DNA of 64,000 bases from Bacteroidetes bacterium UBA2322 (GTDB taxonomy: Bacteria; Bacteroidota; Bacteroidia; Chitinophagales; UBA2359), in NCBI GenBank assembly GCA_002345145.1, contig DDVC01000073.1, forward strand, positions 17,809 to 81,808, read 5' to 3'. Both the position numbers and the translations under genes were made by a program. Below are positions 52,878 to 55,062 of this stretch, one piece after another; position 1 is the stretch's first letter, and each line of letters starts with the position of its first letter. The notes beneath the pieces were generated by a model. That model did no database searches and was not told the DNA's origin. It worked only from the letters and a program-made list of their open reading frames with translations.

Positions 52878-53972
52878 TTAGAGTAAATGGGTTCTTAGTA
52901 CGCCTTTACCCAATGTGGTATTAGCGCCCAATTGAAAAACGTGGTTGAGTTGTTTGGCAAGGGTATCGGTTACAAACTCCTGCACTTCATTTGCGCTGAG
53001 GGTGGCTTTTTTACCGCGCTCATCGGTAAACATGGCAAGGCTGTATAAGATGCTCTCGGTAGGGAGGTATTCTTCGGTAAACAATGCGCCGGTGGCTACG
53101 GTACCGGTTTGGTTGTCTATTTTGGTACGGGTTACTACTTCGGTGCTGAGTTTTACAAAGTCTCTAAAATCGTCGTCGGACAGAATGACGAGGCGGTTTT
53201 TGAGCAGTAATTGCCAGTAGTTTTGTTCGGGTTGGGTAAATAGCATTTTGGCTAATGCACCGGCAAATTTATAGGCAAGGTCTTCGGTATCGGTTTTTAC
53301 CTCAAAAGCGTATTCCTCCAATACTATCGTTTTGTCGTTTATACCTATTTCGTTGGCATTGCTTGCCCTACATGCCTGCTGCCCAATGGCTAATTTAGGT
53401 ACTAAGGCGCTAAGGGTTTGTTTGAGTTCGTTATTAATGTTTGCAATTTTGAGTTCGTGTTCTAATTTTGCCAATACCGATTTGCAGGTTATCCACACAA
53501 AAACGCCTTTCATGCTCTTAACCGGAAACAGCAGCAAGCGCGCATCGGTAAGGGCAAGGCAGCCGGCAAATTCGTGTCCGTCTTTTGCCTTGTCATCACC
53601 GTCTTCTTTGTATTCTTTGTATTTGAAAAGTTTTTTCAGCCTGTTGGCGGTAGCTTTTTTCATACTGCCGTCGTCAAACCCAAAAACCCGATGCACTTTT
53701 ACATCGTTGGCTTCCCAAGAAGCAAAGGCTTTTGCTTTATTTTCATGCTCTTCTTCGGGTAATGCTTCATCGGTTCTTACGTTTTTAAACGTTTCGTAGG
53801 CGTGTTCAAAGGCTTCGCGCAGGGCGCCTTTTAGCGAGGAGCTTTCAATTTTGGGGAAATCGGTATGCCGCTCGCGCTGGATAGGGAGGTCAACAAACCC
53901 TAAGTCATCGCCGGTGCCGGCGTGCAGGGGTGTTTCGCAAATAAGAAACAGGGGGCGTGTAATTTGGTACAT
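52878..53972 (-). CDS. cmr4: Type III-B RAMP Cmr4 (intact, catalytic D28)
   Basis: [52 protein letters not shown]. Confidence 0.96.
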   Translation of the reverse strand: MYQITRPLFLICETPLHAGTGDDLGFVDLPIQRERHTDFPKIESSSLKGALREAFEHAYETFKNVRTDEALPEEEHENKAKAFASWEANDVKVHRVFGFDDGSMKKATANRLKKLFKYKEYKEDGDDKAKDGHEFAGCLALTDARLLLFPVKSMKGVFVWITCKSVLAKLEHELKIANINNELKQTLSALVPKLAIGQQACRASNANEIGINDKTIVLEEYAFEVKTDTEDLAYKFAGALAKMLFTQPEQNYWQLLLKNRLVILSDDDFRDFVKLSTEVVTRTKIDNQTGTVATGALFTEEYLPTESILYSLAMFTDERGKKATLSANEVQEFVTDTLAKQLNHVFQLGANTTLGKGVLRTHLL

Positions 53973-53995
53973 AGTGTATGTAGATTTTACGGTTT
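53849..53995. repeat. 147-bp direct repeat, copy 1 (cmr4 5' end plus 23 nt upstream)
   Basis: Aligns to 54916-55062 with 6 mismatches and no gaps. Confidence 0.97.
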
Positions 53996-54053
53996 AACTA
54001 AAATGAAGAGATTGAAACTAAAGAGTGGTTTATATAGGATTGCATAGTGGTGT

Positions 54054-54671
54054 TTATTCTTGTTTTTGAGGTGGGTTAATACTCTCGTAAATTGGTAAAG
54101 CCCATTCGTTAATAGGCGCATAAGTTTTTTGAAGTAACCCATTACTTGCTCTGAAAAGTAGTGTTGCATCTGCATACTCAATGGAATTATCATACACATA
54201 TAATCTATCCACAAAAGAGGAAGCAAGGCAACAGTTAACAATAGATTTAGAAAAGCGACTAACAATTTTGGTTATTGGCACATCATGCCCACCCTCCATA
54301 ACTCTATGGGCAATACGGCTTGCATTAATAGATGGGTGATTAGTACCAACAAAAAATAAACGTATAAAAAAACCTGCTTCTTTTGCTCGGAGCATATACT
54401 CAACTTTATCAATTGCTGATAGCACAGTTTCAAAAATAAGGCTTTGTTTCAGTAAAAGACATTCTTCCCTTTGTTGTGCAGCAAGATTAGCCGCTTTTAG
54501 TACTGCCTCCGGAGAATTCCAATCGCCAAATTGCTCTTGCGCTATATTATCGGGATTTATATAAATACAGCCTTGTATCCATTCGTGTTTCAGGATTTGG
54601 GTGGTTATAGACGTTTTTCCCGAACCATTTGGACCTGCAATAACCAACAACTTAGGCTTTATTATTTTCAT
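54054..54671 (-). CDS. Zeta-toxin-like P-loop kinase/ATPase
   Basis: IAGPNGSGKTS, YINPDNIA, FETVLS, RIAHRVMEGGHDVP, YVYDNS. Confidence 0.85.
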   Translation of the reverse strand: MKIIKPKLLVIAGPNGSGKTSITTQILKHEWIQGCIYINPDNIAQEQFGDWNSPEAVLKAANLAAQQREECLLLKQSLIFETVLSAIDKVEYMLRAKEAGFFIRLFFVGTNHPSINASRIAHRVMEGGHDVPITKIVSRFSKSIVNCCLASSFVDRLYVYDNSIEYADATLLFRASNGLLQKTYAPINEWALPIYESINPPQKQE

Positions 54672-54855
54672 GTTTTTTTTGTATTGATTTCCATTTTTCA
54701 AGTGTTTGCTTAAGCTGTTGTTGCATTAAGGCTCTATATTTTTGGTCGGCAAGTTTAGCGCGTTCTTTCACCTCTGTAGCAACAGCACGCATAAGTTCTG
54801 CCAATTGCTCATCGGTGGGCTCAGTATCAAACAAAAAGCGATAAGATTTGTCCAT
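54652..54855 (-). CDS. Small helical protein, putative antitoxin
   Basis: 67 aa ([22 protein letters not shown]...), overlapping the zeta-like start by 20 nt. Confidence 0.6.
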
Positions 54856-55039
54856 TTCTACATTTTTTAGGGAGATTAATTGGGGAATAGGTTTGGTTAA
54901 AAAGTAGGTGGCATTTTTTGGGGAAATCGGTATGCCTTTCGCGCTGAATGGGCAGGTTAACAAACCCTAAGTCATCGCCGGTGCCGGCGTGCAGGGGTGT
55001 TTCGCAAATAAGAAACAGGGGGCGTGTAATTTGGTACAT
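54827..55039 (-). pseudogene. cmr4: Truncated cmr4 (41 Cmr4 codons with D28N, then unrelated tail; 70 aa)
   Basis: [41 protein letters not shown], then divergence. Confidence 0.9.
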
Positions 55040-55062
55040 AGTGTATGTAGATTTTACGGTTT
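54916..55062. repeat. 147-bp direct repeat, copy 2
   Basis: See copy 1. Confidence 0.97.

What the first reader, a model, noticed from the sequence alone, without database searches (positions are those of the whole stretch)
53849..55062. Duplicated cmr4 5' end with D28N at the catalytic Asp, bracketing a toxin cassette
Two 147-bp direct repeats flank a 920-bp cassette. They are identical over 104 bp, then differ at 6 sites within 22 bp. Five changes are synonymous (CTC/CTG, CCT/CCC, ATC/ATT, GAG/GAA, CGG/AGG). The sixth is GAC to AAC at D28, equivalent to the catalytic D26 of P. furiosus Cmr4. This pattern suggests a second, once-selected allele (possibly a nuclease-dead Cmr4) rather than decay. 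Recombination in the long tract would excise the cassette and keep active Cmr4. Recombination in the short 21-bp distal tract would give full-length D28N Cmr4, which would be expected to prolong Cas10 signalling. The arrangement may be a recombinational switch or an integration scar.
Basis: partly seen in the sequence, partly recalled or inferred. Interest (0 to 1): 0.75.

Follow-up and report, generated by a model that had tools for sequence, protein, structure and literature searches.

The report
Toxin-antitoxin insertion scar in cmr4
A small toxin-antitoxin gene pair entered a CRISPR (type III-B) operon just in front of cmr4 and copied 147 bases of the gene's start to both sides; the 'catalytic-dead' D28N change sits only in the dead upstream stub, so this looks like an insertion scar of a poorly understood kind and not a genetic switch.

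Summary
Two 147-nt direct repeats (53849-53995 and 54916-55062, minus strand) flank a 920-bp cassette. They are identical for 104 nt, differ at 6 sites in 22 nt, then match for 21 nt. One difference is GAC to AAC at Cmr4 D28, which aligns with P. furiosus D26.

The cassette is a zeta-like toxin plus a 64-aa antitoxin with no recombinase. In 80 other species, the same cassette family is flanked by 45-227-bp duplications of unrelated local gene ends in 14 loci; 242 shifted control positions gave none. This matches 'insertion with long target duplication', so far described for restriction-modification genes.

A second genome of the same family carries an AbiE-type cassette at cmr4's start with a 207-nt duplication.

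The five synonymous differences are ordinary allelic divergence. The stub carries the states of both orthologues, and N28 is private to it. No N allele turned up among 120 homologues, 80 metagenome loci or 185,579 species genomes. All 22 contigs read show the same arrangement, with no excised or D28N form.

A programmed D/N switch is very unlikely.

The parts
54916..55062 (-). Upstream repeat copy (R2): 23-nt cmr4 leader plus codons 1-41 of cmr4, with AAC (N) at codon 28. It sits behind the native upstream intergenic DNA. A dead stub.
   Evidence: Its upstream flank aligns with the region upstream of cmr4 in G029.
54827..55039 (-). Stub ORF of 70 aa: 41 Cmr4 residues followed by 29 residues read from cassette DNA. 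Its stop lies 17 nt past the antitoxin ATG.
   Evidence: ORF 54827..55096, internal ATG at 55039. Gene callers list a 70-aa product.
53996..54915 (-). Inserted 920-bp cassette, promoter region to stop. It holds only the antitoxin and toxin genes and is single copy in the genome.
   Evidence: Absent from orthologue G029.
54652..54846 (-). Putative antitoxin, 64 aa (MDKSYRF...), no family match. A homologue lies upstream of the toxin in 65 of 80 related loci.
54054..54671 (-). Zeta-toxin-like P-loop kinase, 205 aa, Walker A GPNGSGKT. Its start overlaps the antitoxin 3' end by 20 nt.
   Evidence: Pfam PF06414, 40.2 bits against a cut-off of 22.3. 502 relatives in genome contigs.
53849..53995 (-). 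Downstream repeat copy (R1): leader plus codons 1-41 of the intact cmr4, with GAC (D28).
52878..53972 (-). Intact cmr4 (364 aa).
   Evidence: TIGR02580, 236.9 bits against a cut-off of 87. PDB Cmr4 hits.
55126..55731 (-). cas-associated PD-(D/E)xK protein, 201 aa, directly upstream of the stub. G029 keeps only its first 32 codons.
   Evidence: PADLOC PDLC01472, E 3.4e-46. Alignment.
55748..57211 (-). CARF (APE2256/CARF7-type) effector gene. Its 3' half is swapped relative to G029.
57225..60258 (-). cmr3 (57225-58301) and cas10/cmr2 (58291-60258), the upstream part of the same operon.
51273..52855 (-). cmr5 (52472-52855) and cmr6 (51273-52460), downstream of cmr4.

Best explanation
The two repeats are the long target duplication left when a 920-bp toxin-antitoxin cassette was inserted at the very start of cmr4 in a type III-B operon. 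The cassette carries a zeta-like P-loop kinase and a 64-aa antitoxin. It has no recombinase and no terminal repeats of its own.

Shown:
- The insert is flanked by two copies of a sequence that is single-copy in orthologous loci.
- The downstream copy heads an intact cmr4 with the catalytic Asp.
- The upstream copy is a 41-codon stub that runs out of frame into cassette DNA.
- The same cassette family carries the same kind of bracket, made of unrelated local gene ends, in many other species.

Inferred:
- Insertion used a host-dependent route of the kind called 'insertion with long target duplication'. Candidate routes are widely staggered breaks, replicative template switching, or re-integration of a repeat-plus-cassette circle by homologous recombination.
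- The stub and the gene now carry two different cmr4 alleles because recombination with a related strain overwrote one side. The 104-nt identical tract marks the exchange or conversion zone.
- AAC (N28) is a single private G-to-A change in the non-functional stub.
- The cassette is co-oriented with the operon, and no terminator-like site lies between it and cmr4. cmr4-6 are therefore still transcribed, by read-through or from the cassette promoter.
- Loss of the cassette by repeat recombination would free the toxin. This keeps the arrangement stable.
For: 1. Anatomy.

2. Empty sites: G029 (86% Cmr4, same genus) and L035 (82%) have one copy of the 5' end.

3. Generality:
- Of 80 loci holding this toxin in other species, 14 have 45-227-bp direct repeats within about 300 bp of the cassette ends.
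- A strict ungapped test gives 8 of 68 real positions against 0 of 242 shifted control positions.
- The repeats are unrelated between loci except one pair that shares a target.
- They are ends of local genes: N-termini that I read as DnaG primase, ornithine carbamoyltransferase and asparagine synthetase (3' ends), plus an ABC ATPase 5' end. One copy belongs to an intact gene and the other is a fragment.
- Inserts are 890-1074 bp and have no conserved termini.

4. Second case at cmr4: G006 has 207-nt repeats (98%) around a 907-bp AbiEii-type cassette.

5. Literature: this insertion mode is described for restriction-modification units, with 46-423-bp duplications and no mobility genes (PMC2853133).

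6. N28 is private and the synonymous states are ancestral. No N allele was found elsewhere.

7. The arrangement is identical in independent assemblies.

8. No terminator-like site was found on the minus strand in the cassette.
Against: - The insertion mechanism itself is unknown and was not observed.
- The stub is not a copy of the present gene: codons 29-41 differ at 5 of 13 codons. A simple recent in-situ duplication is therefore not enough, and a further recombination step must be assumed.
- L035 carries a degraded copy of the same antitoxin, plus 9 toxin codons, between the CARF gene and cmr4 without any duplication. The cassette may thus be older than the duplication, and the order of events is unresolved.
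- That the only private change in the stub hits the catalytic codon is a coincidence of a few per cent.
- Toxicity and neutralisation by the antitoxin are untested.
- No reads could be examined.
Confidence: 0.8

Rival explanations
1. Campbell-type arrival. The cassette came in as a circle, or as part of transforming DNA, from a related strain that already carried 'cmr4 5' end + cassette'. It integrated by homologous recombination in the conserved first 104 nt of cmr4. The duplication was therefore inherited from the donor and not created here. This is the 'release and re-infection' step of Kobayashi's proposed life cycle. It is a variant of the best explanation, not a denial of it.
For: - The stub carries the G029/L035-type allele while the gene carries the resident allele, and the two are identical exactly over the 104-nt tract where a crossover would lie.
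- The first ~180 nt of cmr4 are 93-98% conserved at DNA level between lineages whose remaining sequence is 80-90% identical.
- A second cmr4 5' duplication exists in the same family.
- The 201-aa gene next to the stub is 58/60 identical to the G029 remnant.
Against: - No donor arrangement was found. There were no other cmr4 5' duplications in 401 phylum genomes, 401 order genomes or 80 metagenome loci.
- The G006 duplication has different boundaries and a different cassette.
- The pattern scan of metagenome contigs found no other carrier of either patch.
Confidence: 0.3
2. Programmed recombinational switch. The repeats let the cell toggle between active Cmr4, after excision through the long tract, and nuclease-dead D28N Cmr4, after crossover in the 21-nt tract. 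The dead form would prolong Cas10 signalling.
For: - The geometry is correct. A crossover in the distal 21 nt would give full-length N28.
- D28 is the catalytic residue (PMC4333402).
Against: - Any such crossover is an irreversible deletion and removes the antitoxin gene.
- 21 nt is about the minimum length for RecA-type recombination (general knowledge).
- RNase-dead Cmr4 causes dormancy or death in S. islandicus (PMC9368842).
- No N allele was found anywhere and no recombinant protein or contig is on record.
- The G006 stub keeps D.
- The same bracket occurs around this cassette at unrelated genes.
Confidence: 0.03
3. Assembly artefact, or chance insertion between pre-existing repeats.
For: - The data are short-read metagenome assemblies.
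- Some short contigs end in the repeat (P0001 lies on a 1073-bp contig).
Against: - Identical structure in independent assemblies.
- The longest identical tract (104 nt) is shorter than the k=127 implied by the name of the ENA contig (k127_113715).
- Cassette-free relatives have one copy.
- Similar brackets occur on contigs whose names (tig..., a 4.4-Mb 'chromosome: 1' record) and lengths of 0.25-4.4 Mb suggest long-read assembly (L048, L077, L097).
Confidence: 0.02

Closest known systems
Insertion with long target duplication of restriction-modification gene units (Nobusato et al. 2000, Gene 259:99; Furuta, Abe and Kobayashi 2010, PMC2853133)
   Same: - A small addiction-type gene unit with no transposase or integrase.
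- Flanked by long direct duplications of variable length (46-423 bp in their tables; 147 bp here).
- The duplicated sequence is single-copy in relatives.
- Insertions often lie at gene ends.
- Gene fusion at the junction also occurs: Furuta et al. report one, and the G006 stub is fused in frame to cassette sequence.
   Different: - The cargo is a type II-like toxin-antitoxin pair, not R and M genes. The authors' suggestion that the mode depends on double-strand breakage by the restriction enzyme cannot apply.
- The 2013 review from the same group ascribes this mode to RM systems only (PMC3874152).
- Here the target lies inside a CRISPR-Cas operon.
Zeta/epsilon (PezT/PezA) type II toxin-antitoxin systems
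   Same: - The toxin matches Pfam Zeta_toxin above its cut-off and has a Walker A motif.
- Two-gene operon with the antitoxin first and overlapping reading frames.
   Different: - The toxin is short (205 aa) and the match covers only positions 15-169 of the 199-position profile.
- The antitoxin has no match to epsilon/PezA or to any family.
- The substrate and toxicity are untested.
Addiction modules guarding CRISPR-Cas loci (CreTA-type; recalled from memory, not tested here)
   Same: A toxin-antitoxin unit embedded in a cas operon. Its loss, together with neighbouring DNA, would be penalised.
   Different: - CreTA is an RNA pair whose antitoxin works through Cascade.
- Nothing here links the antitoxin to the Cmr complex.
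- The same cassette sits at many non-CRISPR sites.
Engineered RNase-dead Cmr4/Csm3 (D26A/N in P. furiosus, dCmr4 in S. islandicus)
   Same: The same residue is changed.
   Different: Here the change is only in a 41-codon stub that cannot form a Cmr4 subunit.

Membership tests
Insertion with long target duplication (criteria of Furuta et al. 2010) | Direct repeats longer than 30 bp flank the insert | tested here: met
   147 nt, 141/147 identical.
Insertion with long target duplication (criteria of Furuta et al. 2010) | The repeated sequence aligns with a single-copy sequence in a related genome that lacks the insert | tested here: met
   G029 and L035 have one cmr4 5' end. L035 does, however, hold a degraded remnant of the cassette.
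Insertion with long target duplication (criteria of Furuta et al. 2010) | Insert under 20 kb, with no transposase, integrase, tRNA or att-type site | tested here: met
   The 920-bp insert holds two ORFs only. The repeat is protein-coding. No conserved cassette termini across 15 loci.
Insertion with long target duplication (criteria of Furuta et al. 2010) | Cargo is a restriction-modification gene pair | tested here: not met
   The cargo is a zeta-like toxin plus a small antitoxin. It therefore works like this class but lies outside the class as published.
Insertion with long target duplication (criteria of Furuta et al. 2010) | Variable duplication lengths and unrelated targets across insertions of the same kind of unit | tested here: met
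   45-227 bp at unrelated gene ends in 14 of 80 loci. Controls 0 of 242.
Type III-B Cmr4 (Cas7-like slicer) | Matches the Cmr4 equivalog model above its cut-off, with the catalytic Asp in the (V/I)D(L/Q)PIQRE loop | tested here: met
   TIGR02580, 236.9 bits against 87. D28 aligns with Pfu D26. The stub (41 codons, N28) is not a member.
Zeta-toxin family type II TA | Toxin matches Zeta_toxin above its cut-off; conserved adjacent small antitoxin gene | tested here: met
   PF06414, 40.2 bits against 22.3. Antitoxin homologue upstream in 65 of 80 loci.
Zeta-toxin family type II TA | Toxin arrests growth and the antitoxin neutralises it; kinase substrate | not testable with these tools
   Needs expression tests.
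Recombinational or phase-variable switch | Both states present in the population, and the exchange is reversible or recombinase-driven | tested here: not met
   One state in all 22 contigs read. Direct repeats give only deletion. No recombinase found.

The most novel reading that the evidence does not exclude
The repeat-plus-cassette unit may be a transferable element that needs no enzyme of its own. On this reading it loops out through its long target duplication and re-enters related genomes by homologous recombination at ultra-conserved gene ends. The first ~100-180 nt of cmr4 would then serve as a portable landing pad for addiction cassettes among type III-B operons.

This would explain three things: the two-allele mosaic of stub and gene, the 104-nt identical tract, and two independent cmr4 5' duplications (zeta-like and AbiE-like cargo) within one bacterial family. 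It would also give toxin-antitoxin modules the 'virus-like life cycle' so far only hypothesised for restriction-modification genes.
Probability: 0.2. Interest if true: 0.7.

Novelty: new member of a known kind. Interest (0 to 1): 0.42.

Why it matters
It removes an attractive but unsupported idea: a natural switch to nuclease-dead Cmr4.

It replaces that idea with a concrete example of a rarely discussed way in which selfish gene pairs enter genomes without a transposase or integrase. Because the cargo is a kinase-type toxin and not a restriction enzyme, the long target duplication cannot depend on DNA breakage by the cargo. That narrows the open question of mechanism, unresolved since 2000, to host replication or recombination.

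The zeta-like cassette family shows the signature in roughly one locus in six. It is small (0.9-1.1 kb) and could serve as a test system.

The finding also shows that type III-B operons of this bacterial family tolerate, and repeatedly acquire, in-line addiction cassettes at the cmr3/cmr4 junction while keeping cmr4 intact.

Tried and rejected
- **Source of the synonymous patch in the same genome:** the two cmr4 paralogues (C136, C194) are about 70% identical and carry neither patch.
- **Strain-level pattern scan** of metagenome contigs for either patch: 0 hits. Records of the window's own organism may be masked.
- **Degenerate [10 protein letters not shown] scan** of genome contigs: 0 hits.
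- **Short proteins starting like Cmr4**: five hits. They were the window's own stub, a broken cmr4 (L030), an IS3 insertion (L032) and two on short contigs. None was a further duplication.
- **More cmr4 5' duplications:** none in 401 phylum genomes, 401 order genomes (beyond G000 and G006) or 80 metagenome loci.
- **Empty site for another duplicated locus (L097):** no relative close enough at DNA level among 25 genomes.
- **DGR-type mutagenesis of the patch:** rejected, because the changes are not A-specific.
- **Integron attC or a site-specific att site:** rejected, because the repeats are coding sequence and differ from locus to locus.
- **Selection for reduced repeat homology** as the cause of the patch: dropped once one search showed the density of differences is ordinary.
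Full report
**1. Observation**

All features lie on the minus strand. The repeat finder gives two 147-nt direct repeats, 53849-53995 (R1) and 54916-55062 (R2), 1067 nt apart, around a 920-bp insert. Aligned in gene orientation, the copies are identical for 104 nt. They differ at positions 105, 110, 113, 116, 125 and 126, and are identical for the last 21 nt. Homology stops abruptly on both sides.

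Each copy holds 23 nt of leader plus the first 41 codons of cmr4. R1 heads the intact 364-aa gene (52878-53972). That gene scores 236.9 bits on TIGR02580 against a cut-off of 87. R2 continues out of frame into the insert as a 70-aa ORF.

Five of the differences are synonymous. The sixth is GAC in R1 versus AAC in R2, at codon 28. In the alignment to P. furiosus Cmr4 (4wnz_A), query residue 11 pairs with chain residue 9, so D28 corresponds to D26. D26A abolishes target RNA cleavage (PMC4333402).

**2. Not an artefact**
- The same Cmr4 protein is on record on at least 22 contigs. Two that were fetched, an ENA MEGAHIT k127 contig of 115 kb and a JGI contig of 174 kb, are 100% identical to the window over 9 kb including both repeats.
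- The neighbouring 201-aa gene gives the same picture.
- The longest identical tract (104 nt) is shorter than the k=127 implied by the ENA contig's name.

**3. Surroundings**

The locus is a type III-B operon. Gene order:
1. cas10 (58291-60258)
2. cmr3 (57225-58301)
3. a CARF effector (55748-57211)
4. a cas-associated PD-(D/E)xK protein (55126-55731; PADLOC PDLC01472, E 3e-46)
5. R2
6. the insert
7. cmr4
8. cmr5
9. cmr6

The insert encodes a 64-aa protein with no family match. It also encodes a 205-aa P-loop protein that matches Pfam Zeta_toxin (40.2 bits, cut-off 22.3), with overlapping reading frames. There is no recombinase. No terminator-like site lies on the minus strand between the insert and cmr4. 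The insert is single copy in the genome.

**4. Relatives of the locus**
- G029 (same genus, Cmr4 86% identical) has no toxin and one cmr4 5' end. Upstream of it lie the first 32 codons of the PD-(D/E)xK gene, followed by a deletion.
- L035 (Cmr4 82%) also has one 5' end. Between its CARF gene and cmr4 lies a degraded copy of the same antitoxin, with a premature stop, plus the first 9 toxin codons.
- The 3' half of the CARF gene cannot be aligned between the window and G029. The first ~180 nt of cmr4 are 93-98% identical among all three, against 80-90% elsewhere.

The stretch between the CARF gene and cmr4 is therefore a zone of repeated gain, loss and exchange, bounded by a very conserved cmr4 start.

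**5. The six differences**

At all five synonymous sites both orthologues carry R2's states (CTG CCC ATT GAA, and AGG or CGA). Both have GAC at codon 28. R2 is thus the orthologue-type allele plus one private G-to-A change, and R1 carries the lineage-specific states.

The density of differences is not unusual. Over the whole gene, window and G029 differ synonymously at 85 of 364 codons. That is a mean of 3.3 per 14 codons, with a range of 0-7.

The two copies therefore represent two ordinary cmr4 alleles joined across a 104-nt identical tract. This needs recombination with a related strain, either on arrival of the cassette or afterwards. The paralogues in the same genome are not the source.

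Nothing suggests that N28 was ever part of a working gene:
- 120 of 120 full-length homologues have D.
- Of 80 metagenome loci, 79 have D and one has E.
- A degenerate [10 protein letters not shown] scan of 185,579 species genomes found nothing.
- The 90% cluster of this Cmr4 has a single member sequence.

**6. What the bracket is**

The toxin has 502 relatives in genome contigs, and the best 80 loci were fetched. An antitoxin homologue precedes the toxin in 65 of them.
- In 14 loci, direct repeats of 45-227 bp lie within about 300 bp of the two cassette ends.
- A strict ungapped test finds 8 of 68 testable loci, against 0 of 242 control positions shifted by 1.4 or 2.4 kb.
- The repeats are unrelated between loci, except L063 and L071, which share a target.
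- They are ends of local genes. By my reading of their N-termini these are a 648-aa DnaG-like primase (3' end, L048), a 333-aa ornithine-carbamoyltransferase-like gene (3' end, L063 and L071) and a 669-aa asparagine-synthetase-like gene (3' end, L065). There is also an ABC ATPase 5' end with its leader (L097). One copy belongs to the intact gene and the other is a fragment.
- Inserts measure 890-1074 bp, run from a Bacteroidota-type promoter region to just past the toxin stop, and share no terminal sequence.
- Several of these loci lie on contigs of 0.25-4.4 Mb whose names suggest long-read assembly (L048, L077, L097).

**7. A second case at cmr4**

G006 belongs to another genus of the same family. 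It has 207-nt repeats (98% identical), made of about 39 nt of leader plus 56 codons of cmr4. They surround a 907-bp AbiEii-type cassette. The stub there keeps D and is fused in frame to cassette sequence.

No further cmr4 5' duplication was found in 401 phylum genomes, 401 order genomes or 80 metagenome loci. Other loci show toxin-antitoxin cassettes or an IS element in or beside cmr4 without duplication (L030, L032).

**8. Comparison with what is known**

This anatomy matches 'insertion with long target duplication', described by Kobayashi's group for restriction-modification units. The defining features are a small addiction unit, no mobility gene, long duplications of variable length (46-423 bp) that are single-copy in relatives, and occasional gene fusion (PMC2853133).
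- Those authors suggested that the mode depends on a property common to restriction systems, such as double-strand breakage. They also proposed a life cycle of insertion, amplification through the repeats and release.
- Their 2013 review ascribes the mode to RM systems only (PMC3874152).
- I found no paper describing it for toxin-antitoxin pairs in three searches. That is weak negative evidence.
- Earlier notes of this scan, which I read only after reaching this conclusion, report the same signature for other toxin-antitoxin families in other genomes. They are unchecked AI notes and I do not count them as support.

**9. How it most likely works**

Shown:
- A foreign two-gene cassette sits between two copies of a target that is single-copy elsewhere.
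- cmr4 stays intact.
- The stub is truncated.

Inferred:
- Entry used host functions. The candidates are widely staggered breaks filled in, replicative template switching that returns upstream of the departure point, or homologous re-integration of a looped-out repeat-plus-cassette circle.
- The allele mosaic favours some involvement of homologous recombination with a G029-like strain (rival 1, about 0.3).
- The cassette is transcribed with the operon or from its own promoter. The stub ORF ends 17 nt after the antitoxin start codon, so translation of the two may be coupled.
- Deletion through the 104-nt tract would restore a clean operon but remove the antitoxin gene. Post-segregational killing should then select against it.

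**10. The switch idea**

A crossover in the 21-nt tract would indeed give full-length N28. It would, however, be an irreversible deletion that also removes the antitoxin. RNase-dead Cmr4 causes dormancy or death through auto-immunity in S. islandicus (PMC9368842). No such allele or recombinant is on record. I rate this reading at about 3%.

The coincidence that the stub's only private change hits the catalytic codon remains. For a single random hit among 147 nt the chance is a few per cent. It is much higher if any change in this almost invariant motif would have drawn attention.

**11. Limits**
- No reads could be examined, so minor excised or circular forms cannot be excluded.
- The order of events among the cassette, the PD-(D/E)xK gene and the duplication is unresolved, because L035 holds a cassette remnant without a duplication.
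- Toxin activity is untested.
- Empty sites were shown only for the window's own locus. The attempt for L097 failed for want of close relatives.

**Verdict**
- Observation: confirmed.
- Novelty: a new member, with toxin-antitoxin cargo inside a CRISPR operon, of a known but mechanistically unexplained kind of insertion.

Noticed in passing
L028 (G006:C5:345000-360000) 5664-7734: Second cmr4 5' duplication. 207-nt repeats (6414-6620 and 7528-7734, 98% identical) flank a 907-bp AbiEii-type cassette whose toxin is split into two ORFs. The 56-codon Cmr4 stub is fused in frame to 110 further residues. The CARF gene upstream is broken into three ORFs.
   Followed up: partly
L035 4690-5000 (Logan SRR14234044 contig): A degraded homologue of the window's antitoxin (40-aa ORF with a premature stop) plus the first 9 toxin codons lies between the CARF gene and cmr4. 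There is no duplication and no PD-(D/E)xK gene.
   Followed up: partly
L027 (G029:C58) 7910-8059: Only the first 32 codons of the cas-associated PD-(D/E)xK gene remain upstream of cmr4, 58/60 identical to the window. The rest is deleted.
   Followed up: partly
window 55768-56519: The 3' half of the CARF effector gene cannot be aligned with G029 (about 45% identity) but is about 70% identical to L035. The 5' half is about 90% identical to G029. This looks like an effector-domain swap.
   Followed up: no
L030 1-2800 (JGI 3300000229 contig): cmr4 is broken after codon 42, the same place as the window's junction. A nucleotidyltransferase (DUF2204/DUF6036) pair lies upstream, and a PIN-toxin pair lies between cmr4 and a 42-aa cmr5 fragment. 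This is a type III-B locus riddled with addiction cassettes.
   Followed up: partly
L032 36-1473: An IS3-family element (HTH_Tnp_1 plus rve) is inserted in cmr4 about 60 codons in, leaving an 84-aa N-terminal ORF.
   Followed up: no
L063 3401-4592 and L071 3560-4780: Two species carry the cassette at the 3' end plus terminator of the same gene, which I read as ornithine carbamoyltransferase from its N-terminus. The outer repeat boundary is the same but the inner boundaries differ by 27 nt. Repeats are 96-99% identical within a genome and about 85% between genomes. Possible causes are a hot spot, concerted evolution or transfer with the repeat.
   Followed up: no
L029 (G008:C28) 2736-3522 and 5469-6014: A 75%-identical copy of the cassette sits between tandem sulfotransferase paralogues without a clear duplication. 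Nearby is a 91-bp tandem array of five or more units.
   Followed up: no
L196 around 4001-4165: A Cmr4 homologue with Glu in place of the catalytic Asp (TELPIQREAHT). It is the only non-Asp among 80 metagenome loci.
   Followed up: no
window 15642-18062: Two adjacent copies, 71-73% identical and 1715 nt apart. They look like tandem paralogous genes.
   Followed up: no
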